From Candidatus Yanofskybacteria bacterium RIFCSPLOWO2_01_FULL_42_49 (GTDB lineage Bacteria; Patescibacteriota; Minisyncoccia; 2-02-FULL-40-12; GWA2-44-9): DNA of 64,000 nt. Shown in pieces: positions 7,853 through 63,374 of this stretch (the stretch's first letter is position 1; each line of letters begins with the position of its first letter). The stretch is from contig MGKI01000014.1 of assembly GCA_001795615.1 (NCBI GenBank), positions 69,380 through 133,379 of the forward strand, written 5' to 3'. Both the position numbers and the translations under genes were made by a program. The notes beneath the pieces are model-generated. The model made no database searches. It saw only the letters and a program-made list of their open reading frames with translations, and was not told the DNA's origin.

Positions 7853-8981
7853 ACAAAACAAAAGAAGCGTGGGATTTATCCCCTACGGCCGACAATCAAT
7901 TGATAATGATGATATTAAGGCCGTCGTTAATGTCTTGCGTTCGGACTGGTTGACCCAGGGTCCTGCGGTAAAACAATTTGAAGAGTCGCTGGCTAAATAT
8001 TGCAACGCCAAATATGCCGTAGCCGTTTCAAACGGCACGGCCGCTCTTCATTTAGCGTATTTAGCCGCCGATTTAAGCGCCGGTGATGAAGTTATCACAA
8101 CCCCAAATACATTTGCCGCAACTTCAAACATGCTCCTGGCGGTTGGAGCAAAACCTATTTTCTGTGATATACGGCTTGATAACTATAATCTTGACGAAAC
8201 AAAAATAGAAAAACTTGTCACCTCAAAAACAAAAGCCATAGTTCCGGTCCATTTTGGCGGCCATCCGTGCAATATGGACAAAATATTAAGTATGGCCAAA
8301 AAACACAGCCTGCTCGTAATTGAAGATGCTTGCCATGCTCTAGGCGCCTCATTTAAGAATGAGAAGGTTGGCGGCATCGGTGATATGTCGGTTTTCAGTT
8401 TTCATCCGGTCAAATCAATAACTACCGGTGAGGGTGGGGCAATTCTGACAAATAATCCTAAATTTTATAAAAAACTGGCCCATCTCCGAACACATGGCAT
8501 AACCAAAGATGAGGGTGGATTCAATGTTATGACCGCACTAGGTTATAACTACAGAATTACCGATATTCAGACGGCCTTGGGAATAAGTCAGTTGAAGAAA
8601 CTGGATAAATTTGTAAAAGCTAGGCAGAAGATTTTCGATATCTATAAAAAAGAGCTGGCCGGTGTAAAAGAGGTCTTCACTCCCTCTCTGGCCAAAAACT
8701 CCGTTTCTTCAAATCATCTTTTTGTAATAAGGACAAAAGACCCAACAAAAAGAAATCCTCTTGCTAATTTTCTTAAACAAAACGGCATAGGCGTAAATTT
8801 TCACTATCCAACCGTTTATTCCCACCCTTATTACAGAAAAAATGGCTATAAAGATGTAAAACTAGCCAACGCCGATCTATATCATAACTCCTGTATCACG
8901 CTTCCGCTTTATGTAACACTAGAAAAGAGCCAAATAAAATACATATGCAATAAAATAAAGGAATTCTTTAAAAAAGTTTAA
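7836..8981 (+). CDS. DegT/DnrJ/EryC1/StrS-family PLP-dependent sugar aminotransferase (PseC/LegC-like)
   Basis: Contains DWLTQGP and SNGTAALHLA, the Schiff-base lysine context FHPVKSITTGEGGAI, and YNYRITDIQTALG. The ORF overlaps the upstream gene. Confidence 0.85.
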   Translation: MTNNNKQNKRSVGFIPYGRQSIDNDDIKAVVNVLRSDWLTQGPAVKQFEESLAKYCNAKYAVAVSNGTAALHLAYLAADLSAGDEVITTPNTFAATSNMLLAVGAKPIFCDIRLDNYNLDETKIEKLVTSKTKAIVPVHFGGHPCNMDKILSMAKKHSLLVIEDACHALGASFKNEKVGGIGDMSVFSFHPVKSITTGEGGAILTNNPKFYKKLAHLRTHGITKDEGGFNVMTALGYNYRITDIQTALGISQLKKLDKFVKARQKIFDIYKKELAGVKEVFTPSLAKNSVSSNHLFVIRTKDPTKRNPLANFLKQNGIGVNFHYPTVYSHPYYRKNGYKDVKLANADLYHNSCITLPLYVTLEKSQIKYICNKIKEFFKKV

Positions 8982-9090
8982 AGTAGAGAATTAAAAGTTA
9001 AAAATCAAAGTTACAAGTTAAAATTTTTTATATATAACTTTGAATTTAAAACTTTAACTTTCAACTTTACACTTTTAACTTTTTACTTAT
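8982..9090. repeat. Palindromic AT-rich AAGTTAAAAG / AACTTTCAACTT repeat element filling the intergenic gap (copy A)
   Basis: The left arm (AAAAGTTAAAAATCAAAGTTACAAGTTAAAA) and the right arm (AACTTTGAATTTAAAACTTTAACTTTCAACTTTACACTTTTAACTTTTT) are near reverse complements. It shares the k-mers AAGTTAAAAG, ACTTTCAACT and CTTTTAACTT with copy B at 60874-61005. Confidence 0.7.
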
Positions 9091-10950
9091 ATGCAAACAT
9101 ACCTACTTTTTGAGATAGCCAATTCCTGCGCTGGGTCGAGCAAATTGATAGAAAAGTTGATAGATTCCCTACCGCAAGAGGATAATTTTGGCATTAACCC
9201 CCACACTCACTTTAGATATAGCTCAAAGAGCCAAAAACTAAAGCAAGTTAAAGTGAGTGTGGGGGTAAAATTTCAAGTTTATAAGTATAACGAAATTGCC
9301 TTATCCGACTATGAATGGTATCCGGTTTATAAGCAAACCTTCATAAATGCGCAGAATTGGAAAAAGATTTTTGCTCATGCAAAGAGCAAGGGCTTTGATA
9401 TCTGGATAGATGTTTTTGATCTATATAGCGTAGAAGTTATTAAAGATAATCTGCCGTTGGTAACCGGAATAAAACTCCAGTCTTCTGTTTTGAATAACCT
9501 CAAGGTATTGACTGCATTATCTGAAGTAATAAAAAACGGAAAGATTACGGTGATGTTAAATGTTGCCGGCAGAGACCTATCAAACATCAAAGAGTTGCTT
9601 AAAGATATAAGATCAAATTATTTTGACAATAAAATTATACTTCAAGCCGGTTTTCAGGGATATCCCACCGATAAAGAAGATCTAACCGTAAGTAAGGTCC
9701 GGATCTTAAAATCCGAATTTCCTAGTACAATAATATCTTATGCCGATCATGTTGACGGCAGTTCGCCTCTTGCGTTTGATATTCCGGTTTTTGCCGTATT
9801 GGCCGGCGCCGAGCACATAGAAAAGCATGTCTGCTTAGACAGGAAAAATACAAAATACGACTTCCAATCAGCAATTGAGCCCTATGAATGTGATCTATTA
9901 ATTTACAAGCTTAATGAAGCCGAAAAAATATTGGGAACAAAGTTTATACCAGACAAGGAAGCAAATTACCTCAAAACAACAATAGAGAAACCAATCGCTT
10001 CAGTTCATTTGAGAGCCGGCGATATTATAAATTTCAAAAACTTTGACTTTAGAAGAACCGGGCAGGAGGGGCTGACTGTAGCTGAAATAAAAGAATATAT
10101 GGAAAAAAGGTACGTACTGAAAAATGATATAAAGCCCGGGAAACCGATAACAAAAAATGATCTGAAAAAAGCCAGAGTAGGCGTTATTATCGCCTGCCGA
10201 ATGAAGTCAACCCGCTTAAAACATAAAGCCATATTACCCATTCAAGGACTGGCATCAATCGAAAGATGTATTTTGAACGCTAAAAAAATTAAATCGGCTG
10301 ATGAGATAATTTTGGCAACTTCAACCCTTGAAGAAGATCAAATTCTAAAAAAATACGCCTTAAAGCATAGGATCCGTTTTTTTGCCGGAGACCCCGAGGA
10401 TGTCATACTCCGCTATTTAGGCGTAGCTGAAAAATATAATCTTGATGTTACAATCCGAGTTACCGGTGATTGCCCGATAGTGTCGTATGAGATGGCCAAA
10501 TTTTTACTGAAAAGACATTTTGAAAAAGGTAATGATTATACTGGCCCCAAAGAATATTGTACCGGACAAAATAGCGAAATATACAGTGTAAATACATTAA
10601 AAAGAATTATAAAGTACTTGGGTGATGCCAGACATTCCGAATATATGACTTGGTATATGCTTACTAATAAAGACATCTTCCAAGTAGATATGGCCGAATT
10701 GCCCAAAGAATGGATCCGCGCTTACCGGCTAACCCTGGATGTCCAAGAAGACCTTGATATGTTTAATGCCTTATTTGAAAAATTGGGCAAAAAAGAAGTA
10801 AGCATTAAAAATGTATTCGGGGTAATTGACAAGAATCCCTGGATTCACGAACTTAACGATGCCATGGTTCTTAAATACAAATCGGATAAAAAATTAATAG
10901 ACATGCTGAATAAAGAAACGAGGATAAATCCGCCCAAAATTAAAAAATGA
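9091..10950 (+). CDS. Fusion protein: divergent NeuB-like (sialic/nonulosonic acid synthase-like TIM barrel + SAF domain) fused to an acylneuraminate cytidylyltransferase-like domain (SpsE-SpsF-like)
   Basis: N-terminal ~340 aa: the order of blocks matches NeuB (...GIKLQSSVLNNLKVL..., ...ISYADHVDGSSPLAFDIPVFAVLAGAEHIEKHVCLD...) and is followed by a SAF-like segment (VHLRAGDIINFKNFDF). C-terminal ~250 aa: ARVGVIIACRMKSTRLKHKAILPI...ILATS...IRVTGDCPIV is typical of CMP-sugar cytidylyltransferases (NeuA/PseF/SpsF). Confidence 0.6.
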   Translation: MQTYLLFEIANSCAGSSKLIEKLIDSLPQEDNFGINPHTHFRYSSKSQKLKQVKVSVGVKFQVYKYNEIALSDYEWYPVYKQTFINAQNWKKIFAHAKSKGFDIWIDVFDLYSVEVIKDNLPLVTGIKLQSSVLNNLKVLTALSEVIKNGKITVMLNVAGRDLSNIKELLKDIRSNYFDNKIILQAGFQGYPTDKEDLTVSKVRILKSEFPSTIISYADHVDGSSPLAFDIPVFAVLAGAEHIEKHVCLDRKNTKYDFQSAIEPYECDLLIYKLNEAEKILGTKFIPDKEANYLKTTIEKPIASVHLRAGDIINFKNFDFRRTGQEGLTVAEIKEYMEKRYVLKNDIKPGKPITKNDLKKARVGVIIACRMKSTRLKHKAILPIQGLASIERCILNAKKIKSADEIILATSTLEEDQILKKYALKHRIRFFAGDPEDVILRYLGVAEKYNLDVTIRVTGDCPIVSYEMAKFLLKRHFEKGNDYTGPKEYCTGQNSEIYSVNTLKRIIKYLGDARHSEYMTWYMLTNKDIFQVDMAELPKEWIRAYRLTLDVQEDLDMFNALFEKLGKKEVSIKNVFGVIDKNPWIHELNDAMVLKYKSDKKLIDMLNKETRINPPKIKK

Positions 10951-46668: not shown

Positions 46669-47708
46669 CAGATTAACTTTTCAGTCCAAGTTTTAGGAGT
46701 TTTAGGGTGTTCAAGCTCTAAACTTTTCAAATAAAAAAACGGTTGCTTGCCTATAGATTTAGCCCATTTCATCATTTTTTCAACTCCATTTGACAAATCG
46801 ACTTTGGGCCTAAATCCTAAGAGTTTCTCAGCCACTTTATGCTCACAATAAGCATATTTAACCTCACGGGGTCGATCGGGTACATTCTTGGGAAGAATCG
46901 TTTTAGGAACATTTTTCATATCGCCATAAAATGTTTTTAATACAATTTCGGCTAATTCCTTTAAGGTTACTGGTTTATCAGAACCAATATTTATAATCTT
47001 GCCTTCGCATTCTTTTTTAAAAGCAGCTTTTACGGTAGCCGGCGCCACATCATCAATATAAGAAAATGCTCTTTTTTGCATCCCGTCACCATAAATATAA
47101 AAATTCCGACCGTGAAGTAAACTGTTAATAAAAATTCCGACAACATTTCTGTAGGGATCGGACAAATTTTGTCTGGGACCATACACATTATGTGGCCTGA
47201 TAATGACATATTTAAAACCATAAACATCAGACAAGACATGAGTCGTCTTTTCCATGGACATTTTAGAAATACCATAAATATCTTCCGGCTGAGGTATCAT
47301 ACTCTCCCTGAATGGAACTTGCTGCGCTCCGTATACACTCATTGAGCTGGTCAATATAATTTTCTTCAAACCGTGTTTGATGGCCGGAACGAGAAGATTT
47401 ATATAAGCGACAATATTTCTATCAATAGCGCTGAATGGGGTAAACTGGCTTCTGCCCTCGGTTGCGTCGGCAGCAAAATGAAAAATGATGTCTGGCTTTA
47501 GTTTTGCAATATAATTTGCAGTTTTTATTCGATCTCGTAAATCAAGTTTCGTGAAGAATTTTTTTTGCGAAACATTTCTCATAAATCCTCCCGAGAGATC
47601 ATCCACTCCATAAACTCGACAACCCATATTAAAAAGCAGATCATAGACATGACTCCCTATAAAACCAGCCGAACCGGTGACTAAAATTTTTGGTTTATTC
47701 AAGCTCAT
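46668..47708 (-). CDS. NAD-dependent sugar-nucleotide epimerase/dehydratase (extended SDR)
   Basis: ILVTGSAGFIGSH and YGISK (YxxxK). Confidence 0.8.
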   Translation of the reverse strand: MSLNKPKILVTGSAGFIGSHVYDLLFNMGCRVYGVDDLSGGFMRNVSQKKFFTKLDLRDRIKTANYIAKLKPDIIFHFAADATEGRSQFTPFSAIDRNIVAYINLLVPAIKHGLKKIILTSSMSVYGAQQVPFRESMIPQPEDIYGISKMSMEKTTHVLSDVYGFKYVIIRPHNVYGPRQNLSDPYRNVVGIFINSLLHGRNFYIYGDGMQKRAFSYIDDVAPATVKAAFKKECEGKIINIGSDKPVTLKELAEIVLKTFYGDMKNVPKTILPKNVPDRPREVKYAYCEHKVAEKLLGFRPKVDLSNGVEKMMKWAKSIGKQPFFYLKSLELEHPKTPKTWTEKLI

Positions 47709-48738
47709 TAATTATATCTTTGAACTTTCCACCCAATATAAGCGGGGAAGCATTATTTTTAAACTTCTCATAACCATTAGCGGCTATTTTATTCATTAGT
47801 GCTGGATCTTGTTTCAGGCGTAAAATAGCATCGGCCAAAGATTCTGGATTTGCCGGTTCCACCAATATTAAATCTCCTTCATTAAACAACTCTCTCACTG
47901 CCGGTGTATTAGCCGTAACAATCGGTTTCTTCATAGCCAAACACTCATAGACTTTATTAGGAATAACTCTCTGCGTTTTTTGAGTATTACCAAATATCCC
48001 TAGACAAACATCGGCCTTGGCAATATTTTCTCTTATCCATTCCTGGCTCATAAAATCCGTGAATTCGACATTTTTTAAACCAAGTTTATCAGACAACTCT
48101 ACCATCTTTTTTTTCTCTTGTCCATCCCCAATAATAAGGAATTCGATGTCGTCTTTTTGGCATATTTTTGCCGCTCTTAAAATATACTCGATCCCCTGCA
48201 GGGGTATAAACGACCCATGAAAAACAATGAGAAATTTACCAGAATTTAACTGTGGCATAGGATAAAACACGCTATCCCTTGCCCCTATCCATATTCTTCT
48301 AAACTTTCTTGTTTTTATTCCAAATTCTTCCGATGCATATTGGATATGCTGATCAGTATCAAATAAAACGATATCAGCCAGTCGCATAGACAGCCAATCT
48401 AAAACCCAATAATAAAAAGCTCTTAGGGAACCCGCCCTTACTGTTTTACGGTCAAAGACATTTGAGTCATAAAGGGATAGGAACGCATCAAAAACAATAG
48501 GCTTTCTTGAGATCAGCTTTGCAAAAGGCACAATTTGCTGCCCTAAAAAACCGACCACCATCACATCATATTTATTTTTTAATCGTCTATGTTTTTGGTA
48601 AAGTTTTATGAATTTACCAATTCCGGGTGAATCATCCCTACACTCAATTACCTCAACATCATTCTGCTTTAAGCCATCTATCAAAACTCTATTTCTGGAA
48701 TAATCCGGATTGTACGATCCAAAATATAAAACTCTCAT
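47695..48738 (-). CDS. GT-B fold glycosyltransferase (GT4-like)
   Basis: The C-terminal block ...NKVYECLAMKKPIVTANTPAVRELF... and overall architecture resemble 32692-33741. Confidence 0.65.
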   Translation of the reverse strand: MRVLYFGSYNPDYSRNRVLIDGLKQNDVEVIECRDDSPGIGKFIKLYQKHRRLKNKYDVMVVGFLGQQIVPFAKLISRKPIVFDAFLSLYDSNVFDRKTVRAGSLRAFYYWVLDWLSMRLADIVLFDTDQHIQYASEEFGIKTRKFRRIWIGARDSVFYPMPQLNSGKFLIVFHGSFIPLQGIEYILRAAKICQKDDIEFLIIGDGQEKKKMVELSDKLGLKNVEFTDFMSQEWIRENIAKADVCLGIFGNTQKTQRVIPNKVYECLAMKKPIVTANTPAVRELFNEGDLILVEPANPESLADAILRLKQDPALMNKIAANGYEKFKNNASPLILGGKFKDIINELE

Positions 48739-49796
48739 GACATTATCATCTCACTGATTTTATCAATTAACTTATAGAGATTATGATTTTCTATAACATA
48801 ATTTCTTAGGTCTGGATTAGCTTGCTGTTTGGCTATAATAACTATTTTATCGGCCAAATCCATCGGATTATTTTCAAATAAAAACAATCCTGTCGACATA
48901 AAAGCTCGAGCAGCGTCACTTGAACTTAGAATTTTCATACCACACGAGATAGCCTCAAGCATAGTTTTGTCTAAACTACCGGTTTTGCTTAAGTGGATAA
49001 ACAAATCATGGGACTGATAATATCGAGGCAAATCGTCATGACCTACTTTACCTAAAAATTTAAAACAGCTTTCCAGTCCCAGACTCTTTATTTTTGATTT
49101 TAAATCTTTTTCATAAGTTTTATCTTCTTCAAGTGCGGGCTCACCAATCATTGTAACTTGAAAATTTATATTCCAACCTTTGAGCAATTTGCATGCATCT
49201 ACTAATATTTCATAATTTTTGACTGGCGCTATTCTACCCACGCTTAGTATTTTGAGTTTTTCAGGTTCTAGTTTTGGCCGATTGCTTGGCTTAAATAATT
49301 CTGTATCAATTCCATGACCAGTAACAATAACTTTATTTGATTTCAAGCGGAAGCTTTCGGGAGAAGCGGTAAAAATAGTATCCGCAAACTTTTCAGCCCA
49401 CCTTAACTGAAATGTCACTCCTCCACTCGTATACCAAAAAAAACTTCTCTTGCCCAATAACTTCCATAACATACCGCCCGCTATCATCCAGATAGGATTC
49501 ATGTGGACAAAGACCGCGTCGTATTCACGACGACGAGTAGAGAGTAGGAAGTATAAAGTATAAAGTTGTCGAATCTTTGAATGGCCTTTATCTTTACCTA
49601 AACTTAGAACTTCAACATTTTCTGGTAAATTAAAACCGCTTTTTTCAAGACAAAAAACGGTCACTTTTTCAAACTTCTTTGAAAATAATCTTATCCACTC
49701 AATGAAAAAACCGAGCAACTGGTCGTTTTCATCGACGGTTTTAGTTGTAATTAAAAGATTCATTGTTGCATTGCCGTATTGCTGAATTGCTAACAA
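48735..49796 (-). CDS. GT-B fold glycosyltransferase (GT4-like)
   Basis: C-terminal ...LEAISCGMKILSS.... The track start is a TTG; ATG at ~49763 (MNLLITTK) is more plausible. The gene contains a degenerate 7-nt periodic tract at 49537-49564. Confidence 0.6.
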   Translation of the reverse strand: MLAIQQYGNATMNLLITTKTVDENDQLLGFFIEWIRLFSKKFEKVTVFCLEKSGFNLPENVEVLSLGKDKGHSKIRQLYTLYFLLSTRRREYDAVFVHMNPIWMIAGGMLWKLLGKRSFFWYTSGGVTFQLRWAEKFADTIFTASPESFRLKSNKVIVTGHGIDTELFKPSNRPKLEPEKLKILSVGRIAPVKNYEILVDACKLLKGWNINFQVTMIGEPALEEDKTYEKDLKSKIKSLGLESCFKFLGKVGHDDLPRYYQSHDLFIHLSKTGSLDKTMLEAISCGMKILSSSDAARAFMSTGLFLFENNPMDLADKIVIIAKQQANPDLRNYVIENHNLYKLIDKISEMIMS

Positions 49797-49830
49797 TGTA
49801 ACAATTTAACAATATAACAATTTTAAGATT
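49764..49830. repeat. Leader region with 8-nt periodic ATTGTTAN x4 and CAATNCNN x3 repeats upstream of gene 48735-49796
   Basis: Read on the - strand: AATTGTTATATTGTTAAATTGTTACATTGTTAGCAATTCAGCAATACGGCAATGCAACAATG. Confidence 0.7.
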
Positions 49831-51018
49831 TCAGTCCTCTAAAATCTTGAAGAGTTTATCAGCATAATTCTTGACCATAATTTTCCTCTCAAACTTACTG
49901 GCAAGTTCGACTCCAGTTGCCGATAACCTCTCTCTTTCTTCGCCATTTTCTAAAAGTTCTCTGGCTTTTTGGGCGATATCTTCGGCATTCCAGTCAATTA
50001 TTTTGGCCACATTCTTTTCGGCAAAATCAGGTATCAAGCCGACATTAGTCGCTAAAACCGGCACGCCACAAGCCATTGCTTCTAAAATAACTCTCGGTCC
50101 GCCTTCGTTGTAGGAGGGCATAATTAGAATTTTGGACTTATTCATAAGTTCGGCTATTTCTTTCTGGTCTTTCGCCCAGCCGTAATTGGTAATTGGTAAT
50201 TGGTAATTGGTAATTTGCGATTGTACCCAATCACGAAGTGCTCCATCCCCAACAACTAAACATTTGATTCTTGATTCTTGATTCTTGAAATTTCTTATCA
50301 CTTCAAGCAATAAGGTGATCCCTTTGTTATTTTCTAGCCGACCAACAAATATCAGATCGTATTCTTTGAATAAACTTAAAGGTTTAAAAATGTCCAAATC
50401 AATATACATTGACGGGATATAAACAATTTTTTCTTTTGGCACACCTGATTTTATAAGAAATTCAGGAACCTGAATTTGATTTACCACCCTAACCGCTAGT
50501 GCCCTTGAAACATCAAATTTTGTAAACCACCTCATTAAATTCCGATAAACGCTTTCTTTAAAACTTGCTGCTTTAGGGTATCCGGGAATGTGATGAATTT
50601 CTAAAACATATGGCACACGGATTTTCCACCACAACAACCTCGCCCCGATACCGTTATAAAACGGGGGGAATTCGTGAACTGTCATCAGGTCAAATTTTTG
50701 TTCTTTGTAAATCTCCAGGCTCTTTTTTAAAAACCAAAACGGATGAAAAATTAACGGCCACGGAGAAATGTGGACATAAACGTTTCCGAATAAGTTTATA
50801 ATTTGAGATTTGGTCCGCCAGTTGGCGGATTGAATTTGTTTAGAGTTTAGAGTTTCGAGTTTAGAGTTTCCCGAATTGATATTATTTGTTTTGGGACAAA
50901 TAATATCAATTCGGGTCCAGTATTTGCTAAACTCTTCCAGAGTATTATAAAATGCCCCTTTCCTGCCGGAAGCTAAGTCTCTCGCACTGCCTAAACCGGT
51001 TATCATGAGCAGTTTCAC
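49831..51018 (-). CDS. GT4-family glycosyltransferase containing three in-frame heptanucleotide tandem-repeat tracts
   Basis: C-terminal EAMACGVPVLATNVGLIPD. The coding sequence contains (GTAATTG)x4, (TTGATTC)x3 and (GTTTAGA/GTTTCGA)x4. Confidence 0.75.
   Translation of the reverse strand: MKLLMITGLGSARDLASGRKGAFYNTLEEFSKYWTRIDIICPKTNNINSGNSKLETLNSKQIQSANWRTKSQIINLFGNVYVHISPWPLIFHPFWFLKKSLEIYKEQKFDLMTVHEFPPFYNGIGARLLWWKIRVPYVLEIHHIPGYPKAASFKESVYRNLMRWFTKFDVSRALAVRVVNQIQVPEFLIKSGVPKEKIVYIPSMYIDLDIFKPLSLFKEYDLIFVGRLENNKGITLLLEVIRNFKNQESRIKCLVVGDGALRDWVQSQITNYQLPITNYGWAKDQKEIAELMNKSKILIMPSYNEGGPRVILEAMACGVPVLATNVGLIPDFAEKNVAKIIDWNAEDIAQKARELLENGEERERLSATGVELASKFERKIMVKNYADKLFKILED
50183..50217. 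repeat. Heptanucleotide tandem repeat (GTAATTG)x4 plus partial unit, inside the GT4 coding sequence
   Basis: Perfect copies at 50183-50210 encode ...ITNYQLPITNY... on the - strand. The unit length is not a multiple of 3. Confidence 0.85.
50264..50284. repeat. Heptanucleotide tandem repeat (TTGATTC)x3 inside the GT4 coding sequence
   Basis: Perfect copies, about 45 nt from the GTAATTG tract. Confidence 0.8.
50838..50868. repeat. Heptanucleotide tandem repeat (GTTTAGA)x4, one variant unit, in the 5' coding region of the GT4 gene
   Basis: GTTTAGA GTTTAGA GTTTCGA GTTTAGA GTTTCCC. Confidence 0.8.
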
Positions 51019-51077
51019 TGCTTAATGTACAATTTACAACATACAATATACAATCTTTTATTGTTGATTGTCGATTG
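51019..51077. repeat. Leader region of GT4 gene 49831-51018 with 7-nt periodic repeats (ATTGTAN x4; CAATCNA x3)
   Basis: On the - strand: ...CGATTAACAATCGACAATCAACAATAAAAGATTGTATATTGTATGTTGTAAATTGTACATT.... Confidence 0.75.
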
Positions 51078-52241
51078 TTAATCGTTAGTTAGTATCTTTA
51101 TTGTTTCCTCTACCATTCTATTCGAACTGAATCTGGCAACGGTGTCTTTGCCTGACTCCGTAAGTCCTTCTTTAAATTCAGGGTTTTGCCAAATTGTTTT
51201 AATCGCCTCCACCAGATTAAATTCGTCATTATATTTAACTAAAAAGCCGTTATCTCCTTGCGTTATTAACTCCCTGTTACCGCCCACCGCAGACGCAATC
51301 ACCGGTATGCCGCAGGTCATTGCTTCCAAAATCTGATGGGAAAAGCCCTCATAGCCGCTATTAAGAACAAACATATCTGCAGCCGCCAGATATGTGGCAA
51401 GTTCCTCTCTTGGTTTTTTTCCGGCCAGAAAAACTTTTTTGTCCAAATTCAAATTGTTAATCATCAAGTTCAGGGATTCCCGATCCGGACCATCACCGAT
51501 AATTACAAGGCGCGCAAATTGATTTAAATTCAGAAGTTGAGGCATTATTTTTATAAGCATCCTGAAACCTTTCCACGGAACCAGCCGACCGACCGAAAGA
51601 ATTATGTTACCATGAATGCCAATCTTGCTCCTTGCTTCTTCTTTTGACAAATCTGACGGCTTAAAATCAACGCCGTTATAAACGATTTTGATTTTGGTTT
51701 CCGGCACCCCCCAGCCCTTCACAATACCGTTTAAATATTTCGAGGGAACAATTACCAAATCCGATTTTTTACAAACCCAACCCTGTAATTTATACAAAAG
51801 GCCAATCCAACCCTTTTTCTTGGATTCCTGGAAATCATCAATAAGAAGCTTCACCTTACCATTCCCCACTCCAACTTCCCAGGCATAATCGCCAACGATC
51901 CTTACAATGAATTTTTTTCTGAGGATTTTAGAAACAACCAGGGACGGAAACCCCGCACTCCAGACATTCAGGGCAAGAATAATATCACTCTTTCGGGCTA
52001 GCCCCAGAAGCTTAATCCCAAAAATAAAATGTTTAATCCAAATCGGCCACTTTCCCCAGACACGAACAATCTTAAATTTGTATTTAGAATCGAAATTGCT
52101 AGTTCTAAATTTTCTTGAATAAGTTAACACGCCAACATTAAATCCCCTGCCATTTAAAGCACCGGCCATAAACCCGGCATAAGACGCCGGACCGCCTATG
52201 TCGGGAGGGAAAATTCCCGTTGTAATTAAAATTTTATTCAT
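51078..52241 (-). CDS. GT4-family glycosyltransferase
   Basis: EAMTCGIPVIASAVGGNRELI. Confidence 0.75.
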   Translation of the reverse strand: MNKILITTGIFPPDIGGPASYAGFMAGALNGRGFNVGVLTYSRKFRTSNFDSKYKFKIVRVWGKWPIWIKHFIFGIKLLGLARKSDIILALNVWSAGFPSLVVSKILRKKFIVRIVGDYAWEVGVGNGKVKLLIDDFQESKKKGWIGLLYKLQGWVCKKSDLVIVPSKYLNGIVKGWGVPETKIKIVYNGVDFKPSDLSKEEARSKIGIHGNIILSVGRLVPWKGFRMLIKIMPQLLNLNQFARLVIIGDGPDRESLNLMINNLNLDKKVFLAGKKPREELATYLAAADMFVLNSGYEGFSHQILEAMTCGIPVIASAVGGNRELITQGDNGFLVKYNDEFNLVEAIKTIWQNPEFKEGLTESGKDTVARFSSNRMVEETIKILTND

Positions 52242-54143: not shown

Positions 54144-55407
54144 TCAAATCAATGCCCCAGAACACAATACTATAGACTCCAAACAAAAGGTTTTATTTGT
54201 GATAACTCAGTCCGAACTCGGAGGTGCTCAAAGGTTTTTGCGCACATTGGTTAATCGTTTAGACAAGAACCAATACAAGCTGCTCGTTGCCGCAGGACCG
54301 ATCTACACAGGACACAGGATACAGGACACAGAACACAAAAGTTACGATTTATTAGATCAACTAGAAACAGAGGGGCTTAAAACAGCCAGATTAAGACACC
54401 TTCACAGAGAAATAAGACCCCTTTCTGACTTAAGAGCCATTTTAGAACTAAGAAAAATAATAAAAGAATTCAAGCCAGACACGCTTTTCCTCTTAAGCTC
54501 CAAGGCCGGCTTCATTGGCTCTCTAGCCGCTCGAAATATCAAAATACCTGTCCGTCCGGCAGGCGAGTCGAAATATCGAAATATCGAGGTCGTCTATCGT
54601 ATCGGCGGCTGGACCTTCAACGACCCGTGGCCGGCATGGAAGAAAAAATTATGGGTATTTTTGGAAAGAATAAGCGCAAAATGGAAAGACGTGATAATCG
54701 TTAACAATAAGCACGACCTAGAACAAGCACACGAATTAAAAATAAAACCGAGAAAAGAAATAAAACTAATTCACAACGGTCTCGATGTTTATAAAATAGA
54801 TTTCCTGCCCAAAGAAGAAGCAAGGCTAAAATTATTCGAAAAAGCATCAAGACAATCCGGAAGAATATTCAACGCCGGAATAATCGTGGGCACTGTCGCA
54901 AATTTTTATCCGACTAAGGGCCTTGAATATCTCATTAGCGCGGCAGAACATTTCAAAAATAATGACGACATTACTTTCGTTGTTATTGGTGACGGAACAG
55001 AACGGTCCCATCTTGAACATTTAATCGCTGACAAGGGCCTTGATAAAAAAGTCCTCTTGTTGGGCCAGTTGCCTGATGCCTACCGGGTTATCCCGGCATT
55101 TGATATTTTCATCCTGTCTTCGGTAAAAGAAGGCTTTCCGTGGGCTGTAATTGAAGCCATGGCTGCGAAAGTGCCGGTTATCGCTACGAGAGTCGGAGCA
55201 ACACCGGAAATCATAGAAGATGATAAAAACGGCATGCTTGTAGAACCAGGCCGGCCAGAACAAATAGCCAAGAAGATACAAGAACTGGTGGCCAACGAAC
55301 ACCTAAGGCAGGAACTGGGCATACAAGCCCACCAAACGGTTTTGTTTAAATTTTCACTCGACAAGATGATAAAAGAAATCGAATCGGCAATGAGCAATAA
55401 TCAATAG
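54079..55407 (+). CDS. GT4-family glycosyltransferase
   Basis: IEAMAAKVPVIATRVGATPEII. Probable start is ATG 54124 or 54136. It diverges from 52983-54143 with almost no spacer. It contains a heptamer tract at 54306-54340. Confidence 0.75.
   Translation: MVSIKTLVFSSICAIMLTKMDTQINAPEHNTIDSKQKVLFVITQSELGGAQRFLRTLVNRLDKNQYKLLVAAGPIYTGHRIQDTEHKSYDLLDQLETEGLKTARLRHLHREIRPLSDLRAILELRKIIKEFKPDTLFLLSSKAGFIGSLAARNIKIPVRPAGESKYRNIEVVYRIGGWTFNDPWPAWKKKLWVFLERISAKWKDVIIVNNKHDLEQAHELKIKPRKEIKLIHNGLDVYKIDFLPKEEARLKLFEKASRQSGRIFNAGIIVGTVANFYPTKGLEYLISAAEHFKNNDDITFVVIGDGTERSHLEHLIADKGLDKKVLLLGQLPDAYRVIPAFDIFILSSVKEGFPWAVIEAMAAKVPVIATRVGATPEIIEDDKNGMLVEPGRPEQIAKKIQELVANEHLRQELGIQAHQTVLFKFSLDKMIKEIESAMSNNQ
54306..54340. 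repeat. Degenerate heptanucleotide tandem repeat (CACAGGA-like x5) in a GT4 coding sequence
   Basis: CACAGGA CACAGGA TACAGGA CACAGAA CACAAAA, encoding ...YTGHRIQDTEHK.... Confidence 0.75.
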
Positions 55408-57774: not shown

Positions 57775-59589
57775 CTAAAATTCCCCCAAAATAACCACCT
57801 CAGACCCCTCGAATGTTCTAATAAAATCCTCCATGCTTGTTTTTGGGTCTTTAACTTGCTCAAAATATCTGTACGCTGATTCTTTGTCTCCCTTATTAAA
57901 GTAGGCCCACCCTAAGGCAAATCTAAGCTCTTTCTGCTGAGGGTTATCGCCAAAATGTTTATGAATAAGCTCAATTGCCTCCTCCGGTTTTTCAAGGCTC
58001 ACTTTTGTCAAAGCTAAAAATAAAACTTCCGACCACCGCGGATAAATATCAACGGAATCAACTAAGACATTCTCAGCCGATTCAAAATATCCGTTTTCAT
58101 AATATAAAACTCCTAAACTTAAATAAGCCCTCAGGTAGTCAGCCCTTAACTCTATGGCTTTCTTCCACAATTCTTCCGACTTTTGGAGCTGACCTAATTT
58201 TTTGTAATTCTGTCCGGCAAGATTGAGAGCGGGAACATGTTCCGGGGCCAAATACAGTATCTTGTTTAATATCTCCTCTGCTTCCATGTACTTACCGGCT
58301 TTAAATTCCAAGTAGGCTTTGTTAGTCTGATTTACAATGCTATCAGGAGCCGCGGCATATGCGCTTTCGTATAGATTAGCGTCATTAAGCCAGTCTCGAT
58401 TCCTGTCTAGTATCAAGAACCCATAAAAAACCAAAATTATTGACACACATCCATATAAAACACGGGTATTTTTGACCCTAGGACCCAGCCACACAAAAAC
58501 AGCTCCAATCATAAAAGCAAGGCCAAGCGAGGGCATATAAAGCAACCGTTCCGCCATTATTGTGCCAGTTTTAAAAACCCAGTTGGAGATCACGAAATAA
58601 GAAGACAGGAAAATTATAATCCCGGATCGCATTAAAATATCTTTTCCCCTAAAGAGCAGCAGAACAACCAAACAGAATATAGCGATTCCCAGCATTGCTT
58701 CAAGCGAAGCAACGAGAGTTTTCACTGGTGGTATTTGGCCGAAAGAATAGTCGCTGGAAAGGTGAATCGGGAAAAAGGTCTTCACAAGATATAGATAAAA
58801 AACTTTAAACGATGTCCAAAGTCCGCTGAAAAAAGACGCAAATTTAATAGGATTGTAGACCGCCGTTGCGTCATTCTTCAAAAAATGTTCTCCCAAAGCT
58901 ATATAACGCAGGACGGCATAAAAAATAACAGATGGGATAAAATAATAAATATTTTTTACGGCTTTTTGGAAGCCAGGCTTCCAGCTGGAAGCCTGGCTTC
59001 CGGAACTAAATAATTCTAGGAACAAAAATATCGGCAAAAACGCTACGGCCATTTCCTTGCTCAATAAGCCAAGGAAGAACAAGGTAGAAGCAAAAATATA
59101 CCTTTGTTTAAGAGCAAGCAGCAGCGCTCCGATAACGAAAAGCAGAGAAAGAATCTCGGCCCTGCCTACTATTGATGTCACTGCTTCAGTATGGATCGGC
59201 AGAAACATAAAAAATAAAAAGCCGGCGAAGGCGGCTATTTTTGAAACGCTCAAACGATATAACAGAACAAACGCTAAAAAAGAAGTAAGGGCGTGAAGAA
59301 AAATATTGACAACATGAAAACCGACCGGAGAAGAGCCAAGTACAAAAGCGTTTAGAGAATAACTGGCAATAGTTAATGGCCTATAAAGCCCCGGGTGTGG
59401 CTGATAGGCGAAATAGGGGGTAATAAAAATCTTCCCAAACCCACCAAGCTGTCCGTCAATAAAAGGATTACCGACAATTACAATAGTATCGTCAAAAACA
59501 AAATCACCCCCTATCCCGTTGCCGAAAAGGACAAATGATAAAATAAGAGCCAAAACGGCAGCTAAAATTAGATCCTTAGTTCTGCCCAT
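57775..59589 (-). CDS. TMTC/PMT-like GT-C membrane glycosyltransferase with C-terminal TPR repeats, paralog A
   Basis: N-terminal GNGIGGDFVFDDTIVIVGNPFI (loop-1 acidic DD motif), ~11 TM helices, and a C-terminal TPR array (AYLEFKAGKYMEAEEILNKILYLAP...). Confidence 0.6.
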   Translation of the reverse strand: MGRTKDLILAAVLALILSFVLFGNGIGGDFVFDDTIVIVGNPFIDGQLGGFGKIFITPYFAYQPHPGLYRPLTIASYSLNAFVLGSSPVGFHVVNIFLHALTSFLAFVLLYRLSVSKIAAFAGFLFFMFLPIHTEAVTSIVGRAEILSLLFVIGALLLALKQRYIFASTLFFLGLLSKEMAVAFLPIFLFLELFSSGSQASSWKPGFQKAVKNIYYFIPSVIFYAVLRYIALGEHFLKNDATAVYNPIKFASFFSGLWTSFKVFYLYLVKTFFPIHLSSDYSFGQIPPVKTLVASLEAMLGIAIFCLVVLLLFRGKDILMRSGIIIFLSSYFVISNWVFKTGTIMAERLLYMPSLGLAFMIGAVFVWLGPRVKNTRVLYGCVSIILVFYGFLILDRNRDWLNDANLYESAYAAAPDSIVNQTNKAYLEFKAGKYMEAEEILNKILYLAPEHVPALNLAGQNYKKLGQLQKSEELWKKAIELRADYLRAYLSLGVLYYENGYFESAENVLVDSVDIYPRWSEVLFLALTKVSLEKPEEAIELIHKHFGDNPQQKELRFALGWAYFNKGDKESAYRYFEQVKDPKTSMEDFIRTFEGSEVVILGEF

Positions 59590-62132: not shown

Positions 62133-63374
62133 TTAGATCTTTTCCAAATAATCACCATGAACCCACCCTTCTTTGCCCTCAAATGTTATCTTGTGCCATA
62201 AACCACTTTTGCCCAAACTCGTTACTTTGTCGCCAGCATCAAGCTGTCCCAAAATTGAACCTGCGGTACTAGCCGATGATCTGACGTTAAGGAACCCAAC
62301 ACTAGAAACAATCTTGTACTGATTGGCTGTTGATACGGTAGTTCCAGAAGATGCAGTTCCAGAAGATGAGGTAGCTTTTCTTGTATAATCGGGTATTTGA
62401 TTTACGGAAGTATAATCAGATCCCTTTGGGTACCAATTAAACTCTTTAGTATTTATACAGAAAACCTTTTTAAAGAAATTGGGATCGTCGGCAACAGCTT
62501 GCGCTCCGGTAGTGTTAACCCAGTGAAGTTTCCCTGTATCTTCGCCGGTGGTTTCCACACCATAAACTTTTACATCATTAGTTTCGCAATTTCTGAAAAG
62601 ACCAGAGGTTACGAACACATCCCTCGTCGTAGATGTAGCGCTTTTAATCTTGGAAAATCCGCCAAGATGGCCATAGAATCCAAATATCGCAGGATTTAAG
62701 AATAACCTTTTATAACCATGCGGGTTAACTATATAAACATCGGGGTCACTTGAACCGGCGGCACTAATGACATCACCGTCTTTTAAGCTTACGGCCGCCA
62801 AGCTGACGAACCCTTGTGAGGCCGGGGTTGGCTTGCTTGTTGAAACAGATGTGGGCGACACAGTCGGGGTCGGCGTCACTGAAACCGCCGGACTCACTGT
62901 CGGAGTTGGAGTCGGAGTTGGAGTTGCCGTAGTCGTGGTCGTGGTTGTAGTTGTGGTCGTTCCGCCTCCACCACCACCTCCACCACCACTATTTCCTGCG
63001 GTACCGCAAGCATTCGAGCTGGGTGTTATTATTACCGTTTTTGTAGAACTAGGAGCTATCGTCAATTCCGACTTATCGCTGAAACATTCGTATTCAAAAG
63101 CGCTGTCATTGGTCAACAATTTCCTATCAGACGATCGAAGCTTAAATGTCTGACCAGAGGTAATCTCAATGGTTATGGTGGTATTGGTAGTTATTATCGA
63201 ATTTACCACGGAACCGTCTACTATCGTCATGTTTCCCACATCAAGAGCAACAGTTGTGTCTCCAGTAGAAGTGGCGGTTGTAGCATTGGTTTTGTTTACT
63301 CCGACCAATAGCAGTCCTGCCATTAAAACAATAACGAGTAACGGCAGAAAAAAGTTAGTTTTTAATAATTTCAT
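62133..63374 (-). CDS. Secreted protein with Gly9-Thr11-(Thr-Pro)n linker and C-terminal SH3b-like domain
   Basis: Signal peptide MKLLKTNFFLPLLVIVLMAGLLLVG, then the linker GGGGGGGGGTTTTTTTTTTTATPTPTPTPTVSPAVSVTPTPTVSPTSVSTSKPTP. The C-terminus ...GFLNVRSSASTAGSILGQLDAGDKVTSLGKSGLWHKITFEGKEGWVHGDYL is SH3_3-like. Confidence 0.6.
   Translation of the reverse strand: MKLLKTNFFLPLLVIVLMAGLLLVGVNKTNATTATSTGDTTVALDVGNMTIVDGSVVNSIITTNTTITIEITSGQTFKLRSSDRKLLTNDSAFEYECFSDKSELTIAPSSTKTVIITPSSNACGTAGNSGGGGGGGGGTTTTTTTTTTTATPTPTPTPTVSPAVSVTPTPTVSPTSVSTSKPTPASQGFVSLAAVSLKDGDVISAAGSSDPDVYIVNPHGYKRLFLNPAIFGFYGHLGGFSKIKSATSTTRDVFVTSGLFRNCETNDVKVYGVETTGEDTGKLHWVNTTGAQAVADDPNFFKKVFCINTKEFNWYPKGSDYTSVNQIPDYTRKATSSSGTASSGTTVSTANQYKIVSSVGFLNVRSSASTAGSILGQLDAGDKVTSLGKSGLWHKITFEGKEGWVHGDYLEKI
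62860..63000. repeat. Low-complexity tandem repeats in DNA encoding the Thr/Pro linker and poly-Gly
   Basis: GTCGGAGTTGGAGTCGGAGTTGGAGTTGCC, GTCGTGGTCGTGGTTGTAGTTGTGGTCGTT and CCGCCTCCACCACCACCTCCACCACC on the + strand. Confidence 0.8.

What the first reader, a model, noticed from the sequence alone, without database searches (positions are those of the whole stretch)
49529..51077. Cluster of heptanucleotide tandem repeats inside and around GT4 genes: candidate phase-variable (contingency) glycosyltransferase
Gene 49831-51018 contains three separate in-frame heptamer arrays: (GTAATTG)x4 at 50183, (TTGATTC)x3 at 50264 and (GTTTAGA)x4 at 50838. Its 5' leader at 51019-51077 carries ATTGTAN x4 and CAATCNA x3 arrays. 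The leader of the neighbouring gene at 49764-49830 carries ATTGTTAN x4. A degenerate 7-nt periodic tract (GTAGAGA GTAGGAA GTATAAA GTATAAA) lies in gene 48735-49796 at 49537-49564. Many units contain CAAT/ATTG cores, reminiscent of the CAAT tetranucleotide repeats that phase-vary Haemophilus LPS glycosyltransferases. Seven is not a multiple of three, so loss or gain of one unit by slipped-strand mispairing would frameshift the GT4 and switch a glycan epitope on or off. The density of 7-nt arrays in a 1.5 kb span is far above expectation.
Basis: seen in the sequence. Interest (0 to 1): 0.7.

Follow-up and report, generated by a model that had tools for sequence, protein, structure and literature searches.

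The report
Translated heptamer micro-arrays in glycosyltransferase genes
A sugar-transferase gene of an uncultured groundwater bacterium (Candidatus Yanofskybacteria) really does carry several short 7-base tandem repeats, but they look like stable, translated pieces of the protein that change in whole-codon steps, not like a proven on/off switch.

Summary
Gene 49831-51018(-), a GT4 glycosyltransferase, carries (AATTACC)x4.9, (TCAAGAA)x3.6 and (AAACTCT)x4.6 on its sense strand. Both flanking spacers carry 7- or 8-nt arrays. Chance predicts about 0 such arrays in 64 kb.

The phase-variation reading is only partly supported.
- Adding or losing 1-2 units would truncate the enzyme before its EX7E motif.
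- All 80 coding heptamer arrays found in 58 related Parcubacteria loci plus this window lie in GT4-like ORFs; none lies in 110 kb of other ORFs.
- One ortholog has a natural frameshift allele made by loss of one 17-nt repeat unit.
- Against this, an identical protein is encoded on 16 contigs. The four loci fetched have identical coding and spacer arrays.
- All orthologs read as single uninterrupted matches.
- Arrays recur at the same few structural sites and are almost always 30-35 nt.
- Units that would create a stop codon carry a stop-avoiding substitution.
- Strains with a long array differ by 7-amino-acid (21-nt) steps.

Best reading: slippage-born heptamer arrays that are kept and translated at sites that tolerate them, with only three-unit changes surviving. 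The spacer arrays are inverted pairs that fold into periodic hairpins. I also found a perfect 20-bp hairpin next to array A.

The parts
49831..51018 (-). GT4 glycosyltransferase gene. The ORF list starts it at GTG 51018; public annotations start at ATG 51006 and give 391 aa.
   Evidence: Pfam Glycos_transf_1 1.4e-35 and Glyco_transf_4. 100% match to a Candidatus Yanofskybacteria protein. AlphaFold model has a GT-B fold, pLDDT 83. EX7E motif E305..E313 is visible in the translation. Nearest solved relatives are BshA and PglA.
50838..50869 (-). Array A: sense (AAACTCT)x4.6, encoding NSKLETLNSK. One copy reads AAACTCG (C at 50856 on the + strand), which removes an in-frame TAA.
   Evidence: TRF; translation. 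It lies in the disordered loop aa 45-71 (pLDDT<50). The identical 32 nt, including the G, occur in ortholog L012.
50870..50915 (-). Perfect 20-bp inverted repeat with a 6-nt loop, directly adjoining array A. One arm encodes the conserved RIDIIC strand and the other encodes TNNINSG.
   Evidence: the repeat finder. RNA fold -28.4 kcal/mol, z -10.3. Kept in L001, L003, L012 and L050, with a two-sided compensatory change in L050. It caused a fold-back contig end in L063.
50264..50288 (-). Array B: sense (TCAAGAA)x3.6, perfect, encoding NQESRIK.
   Evidence: TRF. It lies at the end of helix 234-247 and the following loop, 10 residues before the VGDG strand. The closest ortholog, L001, has a perfect array of the same length there, but its unit differs at 3 positions in every copy.
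50182..50215 (-). Array C: sense (AATTACC)x4.9, perfect, encoding ITNYQLPITNY.
   Evidence: TRF. It encodes the end of helix 262-271, a turn and strand 276-280, in a high-confidence part of the model. The same peptide occurs in orthologs P0003 and P0006.
51019..51079 (-). Spacer upstream of the GT4 gene. On the sense strand, (ACAATCN)x3 is followed by (ATTGTAN)x4 in inverted orientation. They fold into a hairpin of 5-bp stems separated by 2-nt internal loops.
   Evidence: TRF. RNA fold -15.3 kcal/mol, z -2.05. Identical in the three same-species loci that cover it.
49764..49830 (-). Spacer between the GT4 stop codon and the next GT4's likely ATG at 49763. Two 8-nt arrays (ATTGNNNN x4 and ACAATNTA x4 on the + strand) lie in inverted orientation and form a periodic hairpin whose 3' arm reaches the start codon.
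   Evidence: TRF (period 8). RNA fold -16.6 kcal/mol, z -2.56. Start codon inferred from the translation and one of two public gene calls.
49537..49566 (-). Decayed heptamer array in the downstream GT4 gene (48735-49763), encoding QLYTLYFLLST. It is the ortholog of perfect (ACTTTCT)x4.7 arrays in other genomes.
   Evidence: TRF (x2.6). Translation. Orthologs L006, L015, L036 and L050 encode QLSTFYFLLST with 96-100% arrays.
54305..54337 (+).
   Evidence: TRF; Pfam; position aa 77-88.
8972..9088 (+). Another spacer built from two inverted heptamer arrays (AAAAGTT... / AACTTTN...), between a DegT-type aminotransferase gene and a NeuB/cytidylyltransferase gene.
   Evidence: TRF. RNA fold -22.9 kcal/mol, z -3.14. 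Pfam.

Best explanation
The repeats are heptanucleotide simple-sequence arrays born by replication slippage and fixed as translated sequence. They sit in a few structurally tolerant positions of Parcubacteria GT4 glycosyltransferases: the loop after strand 2, the segment just before the VGDG strand, and the helix-turn-strand just after it.

Seven and three share no factor, so only changes of three units (21 nt, 7 aa) keep the enzyme intact. Selection therefore holds the arrays at quantised lengths, mostly about 33 nt. It forces a stop-avoiding substitution in units that contain a stop codon. It lets arrays turn over in concert while the length stays the same. The visible result is slow, in-frame remodelling of surface segments. 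One-unit slips do occur, but they are null alleles that stay rare.

In this organism the arrays are fixed. The spacer arrays are a different object: pairs of inverted arrays that fold into periodic hairpins between genes of the operon. They most likely act on the transcript (stability, processing or access to the start codon).

Shown: the anatomy, the conservation, the length quantisation and the invariance. Inferred: slippage as the origin, selection as the filter, and any role for the hairpins.
For: 1. The feature is lineage-wide. In 311 kb of related loci, 104 of 209 TRF rows have period 7 and 35 have period 14.
2. Lengths are quantised. Of 80 coding arrays, 76 are 36 nt or shorter with a peak at 30-35 nt; the other four are 50-68 nt. 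In cyanobacteria the same kind of array is mostly non-coding and spans 20-174 nt continuously.
3. Arrays recur at fixed sites with lineage-specific units.
4. Arrays are translated. Of 36 arrays whose unit contains a stop codon, 35 are imperfect; examples are TGA to TGG giving KLKIENWKL, and TAA to GAA in array A. Of 44 stop-free arrays, 22 are perfect.
5. Strain variation is in-frame. The P0106 cluster (92-99% identity) has 393, 400 or 414 aa. The differences lie in a 151-nt GAACCAT array that has a 21-nt superperiod.
6. Turnover is concerted at constant length. The window and L001 have perfect site-B arrays of similar length at the same position (25 and 32 nt by TRF), but the units TCAAGAA and TCAAATC differ at 3 positions in every copy.
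7. No variation appears in this species. The identical protein is on 16 contigs and four fetched loci are 99.7-100% identical to the window.
8. No ortholog is frameshifted.
9. Structure: site A is disordered; sites B and C are in the model's ordered C-terminal Rossmann domain, upstream of the EX7E motif in sequence.
10. Heptamers are already known as the most abundant long-repeat class in many bacteria, which has been attributed to polymerase slippage (Mrazek et al. 2007, as summarised in PMC4679880 and PMC4692102).
Against: - Tolerance alone does not obviously explain why all 80 coding arrays are in GT4-like ORFs and none in 110 kb of neighbouring ORFs. Those other proteins do carry linker repeats with period 3, 6 or 12 (62899-62989).
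- Going from 2 to 5 copies one unit at a time must pass through frameshifted states. That fits genes which can be switched off for a while.
- A real one-unit frameshift allele exists in an ortholog.
- Codons for identical residues match in 75% of cases inside arrays against 44% outside. The hairpin also shows a compensatory change. Both hint at constraint on the nucleic acid itself. The codon figure is partly circular, because the arrays were selected for being periodic.
- All population evidence comes from consensus contigs, not reads.
Confidence: 0.6

Rival explanations
1. This is a true contingency locus. The heptamer arrays are selected mutational hot spots, and one-unit slips reversibly switch this GT4 (and its paralogs) off and on. 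That would vary the surface glycan of an episymbiotic bacterium under pressure from hosts or phages.
For: - The unit is not a multiple of 3 and lies inside a GT ORF. Plus or minus 1-2 units truncates the protein before EX7E.
- Enrichment is exclusive: 80 arrays in GT4-like ORFs, 0 in other ORFs of the same loci.
- Many arrays are 100% perfect, so they are young or recently homogenised.
- L184 differs from L004 only by loss of one 17-nt unit at site A, giving a frameshifted allele that was assembled as a sample consensus.
- The whole 64-kb window is a glycan-synthesis island.
Against: - No length variant appears among 16 contigs that encode the identical protein, and no truncated near-identical protein appears among the top hits of a database of 5.8 billion protein clusters, apart from one assembly artefact.
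- None of the 58 ortholog loci is frameshifted.
- Copy numbers of 3.6-4.9 are far below the tracts of characterised switches (my knowledge: typically more than 10 units for Haemophilus tetranucleotides).
- Array lengths and peptides are conserved across 60-70% identity orthologs.
- Three arrays at fixed structural sites are not needed for a switch.
- The only copy-number polymorphisms seen in heptamer arrays are in-frame.
- The single OFF allele is about 1 of at least 27 contigs and involves a 17-nt unit, not a heptamer.
Confidence: 0.2
2. The arrays and hairpins work as nucleic-acid elements, for example binding sites for a single-strand or RNA-binding regulator, or structures that control transcript stability or translation. 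This was proposed for the TAACTGA repeats upstream of start codons in Beggiatoaceae. On this reading their translation is incidental.
For: - Spacer arrays lie immediately upstream of start codons and form hairpins with z -2 to -3.
- The coding hairpin has z -10.3 and is kept with a compensatory change.
- Synonymous codon identity is 75% inside arrays against 44% outside.
- The precedent is in PMC4679880.
Against: - Unit sequences differ from site to site and from genome to genome. Units are not shared within a genome beyond chance (p about 0.3), so no common recognition sequence exists.
- No Rfam family matches.
- Promoter and terminator scans are not clearly above shuffles.
- Template-switch mutation can also perfect a palindrome, so compensatory changes do not prove selection.
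- The codon-identity statistic is inflated because arrays were picked for being periodic.
Confidence: 0.12
3. The arrays are copied between GT4 paralogs by gene conversion, or are spread by a small mobile element. On this reading their restriction to GT4 genes reflects shared flanking homology and not tolerance or selection.
For: - Arrays occupy equivalent positions in several GT4 paralog families.
- A few loci have the same unit in two paralogs: AAGTTAC twice in L017 and AGCGACA twice in L002.
- N-terminal modules look exchanged between lineages in P0004 and P0160.
Against: - Within-locus sharing of units is no higher than in shuffles (d=0: 3.0% against 2.3%; d<=1: 12.8% against 11.1%; p about 0.3).
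- Arrays have no conserved termini or flanks.
- Units differ between sister lineages at the same site.
- P0004 and P0160 come from read-level assemblies and may be chimeras.
Confidence: 0.05

Closest known systems
Simple-sequence contingency loci in LOS/LPS glycosyltransferases (Haemophilus influenzae lic2A and lgtC tetranucleotides, losA octanucleotide; Campylobacter poly-G). From my knowledge.
   Same: A tandem repeat whose unit is not a multiple of three lies inside a surface-glycan glycosyltransferase ORF. A one-unit slip gives a frameshift null. Such repeats are concentrated in GT genes.
   Different: Only 3.6-4.9 copies. No ON/OFF or length polymorphism in this species. There are three arrays per gene at conserved structural sites. 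Arrays are conserved as peptides in distant orthologs and carry stop-avoiding substitutions. The variation that is seen comes in three-unit steps.
Heptanucleotide long simple-sequence repeats: cyanobacterial STRR, Beggiatoaceae TAACTGA repeats (MacGregor 2015, PMC4679880), Xanthomonas/Nostoc GGGAATC (Rehm 2015, PMC4692102), and the Mrazek 2007 survey.
   Same: 7-nt units. The very unit AATTACC occurs as arrays of at least 4 copies in many filamentous cyanobacteria, Parabeggiatoa, Chloroflexota, WOR-3 and Patescibacteria. Inverted array pairs and arrays just upstream of start codons are also described there.
   Different: Those arrays are mainly intergenic and of continuous length, up to 174 nt in my sample. 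Here 80 of 91 arrays are coding, are capped near 35 nt, and are confined to GT4-like genes.
Tandem repeats in Borg elements that create disordered protein regions (Schoelmerich et al. 2023, PMC9879509; abstract only seen).
   Same: Perfect, recently formed, rapidly evolving tandem repeats inside ORFs that add new peptide segments. Site A here is predicted to be disordered.
   Different: Here the unit is 7 nt, so the frame is kept only by three-unit quantisation. The arrays are tiny and limited to one enzyme family.
Rickettsia palindromic elements inserted in-frame in protein genes (Ogata et al. 2000). From my knowledge.
   Same: DNA-level, hairpin-forming sequence is tolerated and translated within loops of otherwise conserved enzymes. 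Examples are the 20-bp hairpin at 50870-50915 and other palindromes at site A in L010, L023 and L049.
   Different: There is no dispersed repeat family and no shared sequence. One hairpin arm here is the conserved coding sequence itself, which points to a local inverted duplication and not to an insertion.

Membership tests
SSR-mediated phase-variable (contingency) gene | Tandem repeat tract in the ORF or promoter whose unit length is not a multiple of three | tested here: met
   Three heptamer arrays lie in the ORF. Plus or minus 1-2 units truncates the product at 54-295 aa.
SSR-mediated phase-variable (contingency) gene | Tract length differs among strains or within populations of the same species | tested here: not met
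   The identical protein is on 16 contigs. Four fetched loci from different samples are 99.7-100% identical, including every array they cover. Ten near-identical contig pairs of other species also show no change in heptamer copy number. This is consensus-level evidence only.
SSR-mediated phase-variable (contingency) gene | Both in-frame (ON) and frameshifted (OFF) alleles occur in nature | tested here: inconclusive
   None was found for this gene or for any heptamer array. One OFF allele caused by loss of a 17-nt unit occurs in the P0017 ortholog.
SSR-mediated phase-variable (contingency) gene | High, reversible switching rate | not testable with these tools
   This needs read-level population data or a reporter assay.
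GT4 (GT-B fold, retaining) glycosyltransferase | Glycos_transf_1 C-terminal domain, GT4-type N-terminal domain, EX7E motif and a two-Rossmann-domain fold | tested here: met
   Pfam PF00534 1.4e-35, PF13439, PF13579. E305-x7-E313 in the translation. AlphaFold model pLDDT 83 with alternating strands and helices. PDB relatives BshA and PglA. Enzyme activity was not tested.
Heptanucleotide long SSRs (STRR-like) | Head-to-tail 7-nt units of at least 3 copies, over-represented relative to other periods in the lineage | tested here: met
   (window). 104 of 209 TRF rows are period 7 in related loci. Chance expectation is about 0.
Heptanucleotide long SSRs (STRR-like) | Predominantly intergenic location with a broad length range | tested here: not met
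   80 of 91 arrays are coding and 76 of those 80 are 36 nt or shorter. Cyanobacterial loci give 185 non-coding against 48 coding arrays, 20-174 nt long.

The most novel reading that the evidence does not exclude
In Parcubacteria, heptamer micro-arrays may be an evolvability device tied to GT4 glycosyltransferases. On this reading they are self-renewing cassettes of about 33 nt, quantised by reading frame, at a handful of fixed structural sites. They would do two things: remodel surface segments in 7-residue steps, and through rare one-unit slips take individual transferases out of and back into service. That would diversify the cell-surface glycan of these episymbionts. The adjoining hairpins would promote or position the slippage.
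Probability: 0.15. Interest if true: 0.7.

Novelty: new variant of a known kind. Interest (0 to 1): 0.5.

Why it matters
Candidate Phyla Radiation bacteria live attached to other cells, and their surface glycans are probably central to that contact. Almost nothing is known about how those glycans vary.

This locus shows that their GT4 genes, and apparently only those genes among their neighbours, hold a repeat class that ordinary coding sequence avoids. It also shows a simple rule (three-unit steps and stop-avoiding substitutions) by which such repeats persist in frame.

If the arrays prove mutable at the read level, they would be the first candidate contingency loci in this radiation. If they do not, they are a clean natural example of how non-triplet repeats are domesticated into protein sequence. 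They are also a warning against inferring phase variation from repeat anatomy alone.

Tried and rejected
- **Apparent copy-number difference between L006 and L007** (4.7 against 3.7 copies in TRF). It is two substitutions in the last unit, not an indel.
- **P0002, a 284-aa "truncated" 100%-identical protein.** Its contig carries the unchanged array A and begins with a fold-back copy of the 20-bp hairpin, so it is an assembly artefact.
- **L038, where an array seemed to lie outside any ORF.** The gene is intact. It overlaps its neighbour and my greedy ORF filter dropped it.
- **P0144/P0145 split gene, and the L187 and P0118 deletions of 67 and 60 nt.** None of these is at a repeat array.
- **Genome-specific unit preference or copying of arrays in trans.** Within-locus sharing of units equals shuffles.
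- **Known RNA families.** None above noise.
- **Promoters and terminators at the spacer hairpins.** Counts are not clearly above shuffles, and the hairpins are not picked up as terminators.
- **L062's 12-nt "indel".** It is a run of N in a scaffold.
- **A "2 + 3 = 5 copies" origin for the 35-nt cap.** The length differences to array-free orthologs at site B are 4-6 aa and do not fit cleanly (alignment A1), so I keep it only as a conjecture.
- **Literature searches.** Searches for heptanucleotide repeats in Patescibacteria or CPR found nothing specific.
Full report
**What is there**

The window comes from a Candidatus Yanofskybacteria (Parcubacteria, Candidate Phyla Radiation) genome. The protein of ORF 49831-51018(-) is 100% identical to a public protein from that organism. 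The ORF is a GT4 glycosyltransferase:
- Pfam Glycos_transf_1 at 1.4e-35, plus the N-terminal GT4 domains.
- An E305-x7-E313 motif in the translation.
- A confident GT-B model, pLDDT 83.
- BshA and PglA as nearest solved relatives.

The gene sits in a row of GT4, GT2, epimerase and methyltransferase genes. The whole 64 kb is a glycan-synthesis island.

Read on the sense strand they are:

| Array | Unit and copies | Window coordinates | Peptide |
|---|---|---|---|
| C | (AATTACC)x4.9, perfect | 50182-50215 | ITNYQLPITNY |
| B | (TCAAGAA)x3.6, perfect | 50264-50288 | NQESRIK |
| A | (AAACTCT)x4.6, one mismatch | 50838-50869 | NSKLETLNSK |

Exact period-7 arrays of at least 3 copies occur nowhere else in the window. 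Simulated sequence gives 0.00 per 64 kb. This 1.5 kb has the highest lag-7 score in the window.

- The two arrays in each flanking spacer are inverted relative to each other. They fold into hairpins built of 5-8-bp stems separated by 1-2-nt internal loops. The spacers are 51019-51079 and 49764-49830 (the latter with 8-nt units). A third example lies at 8972-9088. The z-scores are -2.0 to -3.1.
- Directly next to array A lies a perfect 20-bp inverted repeat with a 6-nt loop (50870-50915). It folds at -28.4 kcal/mol, z -10.3. One arm is the conserved RIDIIC strand of the enzyme. The other arm is its reverse complement, translated as TNNINSG. Four orthologs keep this hairpin, and one of them has a two-sided compensatory change.
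- The degenerate tract at 49537-49566 is the decayed counterpart of perfect (ACTTTCT)x4.7 arrays at the same position in the same downstream GT4 family in other genomes.

**The wider pattern**

A scan of metagenome contigs returned 58 loci encoding orthologs of 40-71% identity. Period 7 dominates their tandem repeats: 104 of 209 TRF rows, with 35 more at period 14.

After removing duplicates there are 91 arrays in the 58 loci plus this window. Of these, 80 lie inside ORFs. Their lengths are sharply peaked: 76 are 36 nt or shorter, mostly 30-35 nt, and the remaining four are 50-68 nt.

Every one of the 80 lies in a GT4-like ORF (187 kb). None lies in the 110 kb of other ORFs in the same loci. 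Within the window the same holds. The neighbouring non-GT4 proteins instead carry period-3, 6 or 12 linker repeats. One such hexamer repeat is polymorphic between near-identical contigs.

The arrays fall at a handful of equivalent positions in several GT4 paralog families:
- after the RIDIIxP strand;
- after IPNGVD..F;
- 10-15 residues before the GxG strand;
- 9-14 residues after the GxG strand;
- one further site in the downstream gene family.

The units differ from lineage to lineage.

In the model, site A is a disordered loop (aa 45-71, pLDDT<50). Site B is a helix end plus a loop. Site C is a helix end, a turn and a strand of the C-terminal Rossmann domain.

**The arrays are translated and selected as protein**

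A heptamer array reads its unit in all three frames. A unit that contains a stop codon in any frame therefore cannot be repeated perfectly three times inside a gene.
- Of the 36 coding arrays with such units, 35 are imperfect.
- The mismatch sits where the stop would be. Examples are AAATTGA to AAATTGG, giving KLKIENWKL in seven orthologs, and AAACTCT to AAACTCG in array A here.
- The array A substitution is identical in L003, L012 and this window.
- Of the 44 arrays with stop-free units, 22 are perfect.

**Do they vary?**

In this species they do not, as far as assemblies can show.
- The identical protein is encoded on 16 contigs.
- The four loci shown, from different samples, are 99.7-100% identical to the window over 3.8-7.2 kb. 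This includes every coding array and each spacer array they cover.
- The one truncated near-identical protein in the database is a fold-back artefact at the 20-bp hairpin.
- All 58 ortholog loci give a single uninterrupted match.
- Ten pairs of near-identical contigs from other species show no change in heptamer copy number.

Variation does exist elsewhere in the family, and it is informative.
- In a cluster of strains 92-99% identical, site A carries a 151-nt GAACCAT array with a 21-nt superperiod. The proteins are 393, 400 or 414 aa, so they differ by whole 7-residue (three-unit) steps.
- The window and its closest ortholog L001 both have perfect site-B arrays of similar length at the same position (25 and 32 nt by TRF). 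Their units, TCAAGAA and TCAAATC, differ at three positions in every copy. Only expansion and contraction can produce that; independent point mutations cannot.
- In the P0017 ortholog, contig L184 is identical to L004 except for the loss of one unit of a perfect (TCCAACAAGCGAAGCGA)x2.5 repeat at site A. The loss shifts the frame and truncates the gene call. This is a genuine slipped-strand OFF allele. It is about one contig in at least 27, and the unit is 17 nt, not 7.

**Interpretation**

The most economical account is that heptamer arrays arise by slippage. This bias is already documented for many bacteria (Mrazek 2007, as summarised in PMC4679880 and PMC4692102). In these compact genomes they survive only where they can be translated harmlessly.

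Because 7 and 3 share no factor, selection passes only three-unit changes. That explains the 30-35-nt peak, the few longer arrays of 50-68 nt, the 7-residue strain polymorphism, concerted turnover at constant length, and the absence of frameshifted consensus alleles.

Simulated plus or minus 1-2 unit changes in the three window arrays give products of 54, 251-264 and 285-295 aa, all without the EX7E motif. Plus or minus 3 units at arrays B and C, and minus 3 at array A, restores the frame.

I put 0.6 on this reading and 0.2 on true phase variation. The main argument for phase variation is the exclusive association with GT4 genes. A repeat class that coding sequence normally avoids, concentrated in accessory surface-glycan genes, is the classic signature of contingency loci. 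Building a five-copy array one unit at a time also needs the gene to tolerate being off.

A nucleic-acid-level function gets 0.12. In its favour are the hairpins, codon identity of 75% inside arrays against 44% outside, and arrays abutting start codons. Against it are the lack of any shared unit and the absence of a known RNA family. Spread by gene conversion or a mobile element gets 0.05.

**Relation to what is known**

The unit AATTACC itself forms arrays in many filamentous cyanobacteria, and also in Parabeggiatoa, Chloroflexota, WOR-3, Stahlbacteria and other Patescibacteria. There the arrays are mostly non-coding and of any length from 20 to 174 nt.

Where that unit is coding in the non-cyanobacterial genomes, it is again read as ITNYQLP and is often about 33 nt (ten arrays span 29-86 nt). 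The host genes include a Wzy-type ligase, a GT2-GT2 fusion and the linker of a PBP1.

These are therefore members of the known class of heptanucleotide simple-sequence repeats. They form a previously undescribed variant: coding, frame-quantised, and restricted to GT4 genes in the loci sampled. My literature searches found no report of them in this radiation.

**Limits**

- All population evidence is from consensus assemblies.
- Look-up by exact protein cannot find variant alleles directly. I relied on their absence from the top 120 homolog hits listed and from cluster members.
- The GT4 restriction was measured in glycan-gene neighbourhoods, not whole genomes.
- Orthologous arrays are not independent events.

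Noticed in passing
window 50870-50915: A perfect 20-bp inverted repeat with a 6-nt loop lies inside the GT4 coding sequence. One arm encodes the conserved RIDIIC strand. RNA fold z is -10.3. Four orthologs conserve it, one with a compensatory change. It looks like a local inverted duplication that became part of the protein.
   Followed up: yes
L184:1300-1620 vs L004:2940-3260: In a related Paceibacteria species, two contigs are identical except for the loss of one unit of a perfect 17-nt x2.5 repeat in the same loop (site A). The loss frameshifts the ortholog. This is a natural slipped-strand null allele.
   Followed up: yes
L185:1614-1764 and proteins P0106, P0129, P0132-P0136: A 151-nt GAACCAT array (21.6 copies with a 21-nt superperiod, encoding TMNHEPR repeats) varies between 92-99% identical strains in steps of exactly 7 residues.
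   Followed up: yes
L063:1-40: The contig begins with a fold-back copy of the hairpin arm. This made a gene caller report a truncated protein (P0002). It shows how such palindromes corrupt short-read assemblies.
   Followed up: yes
proteins P0004 and P0160: Two database proteins combine the N-terminal ~100 residues of one ortholog lineage (including its site-A insert) with the remainder of another. This is either recombination of the N-terminal module between co-occurring species or chimeric read-level assembly.
   Followed up: partly
L043:3001-4020 and L051:671-1458: These orthologs run directly from the site-B array into DGWAKD, so they lack the VGDG strand and the following helix. This could be a deletion between the two array sites.
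   Followed up: no
L010, L023, L049, L057, L058 (site A of the orthologs): Other orthologs carry unrelated strong palindromes in the same loop. L023, for example, has an 11-bp GC-rich stem at -31.6 kcal/mol. The loop collects hairpin-forming DNA as well as repeats.
   Followed up: partly
window 62899-62989: A dense block of period-3, 6 and 12 repeats (GTCGGAGTTGGA, CGTGGT, CCA) lies in the ORF of an SH3-domain protein (62133-63374). These are ordinary in-frame linker repeats and contrast with the heptamers in the GT4 genes.
   Followed up: no
L032:6564 vs L033:6564: Near-identical contigs from two samples differ by one CCCAAC hexamer unit. A period-6 repeat is polymorphic where none of the heptamer arrays is.
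   Followed up: partly
window 9194-9269: A 21-nt inverted repeat (95% complementary, 34-nt loop) lies at the start of the NeuB/cytidylyltransferase ORF, just downstream of the heptamer-array spacer at 8972-9088.
   Followed up: no
window 58968-59001: A perfect 34-bp palindrome (17-nt arms with no spacer) lies inside the TPR-protein ORF 57775-59589.
   Followed up: no
L187:1190-1200 vs L189:1400-1470; protein P0118: Two early public assemblies of a related Yanofskybacteria/Wolfebacteria ortholog lack 67 and 60 nt of the same conserved segment (PWPIIFHPFWFLKKGIEIYKEQK). No repeat is involved. This may be an assembly problem or a real deletion.
   Followed up: partly
L064-L143 (genome-contig hits): The exact array (AATTACC)x4 is common in Nostocales and Oscillatoriales cyanobacteria. 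It also occurs in Parabeggiatoa, Anaerolineae, WOR-3, Stahlbacteria, Saprospiraceae and Planctomycetales. The same heptamer unit is therefore shared across very distant phyla.
   Followed up: partly
window 47161-47168 vs L060:6839-6846: The only differences between the window and one same-species contig are five clustered mismatches within 8 nt of the epimerase gene. This is a small patch replacement, not scattered SNPs.
   Followed up: no
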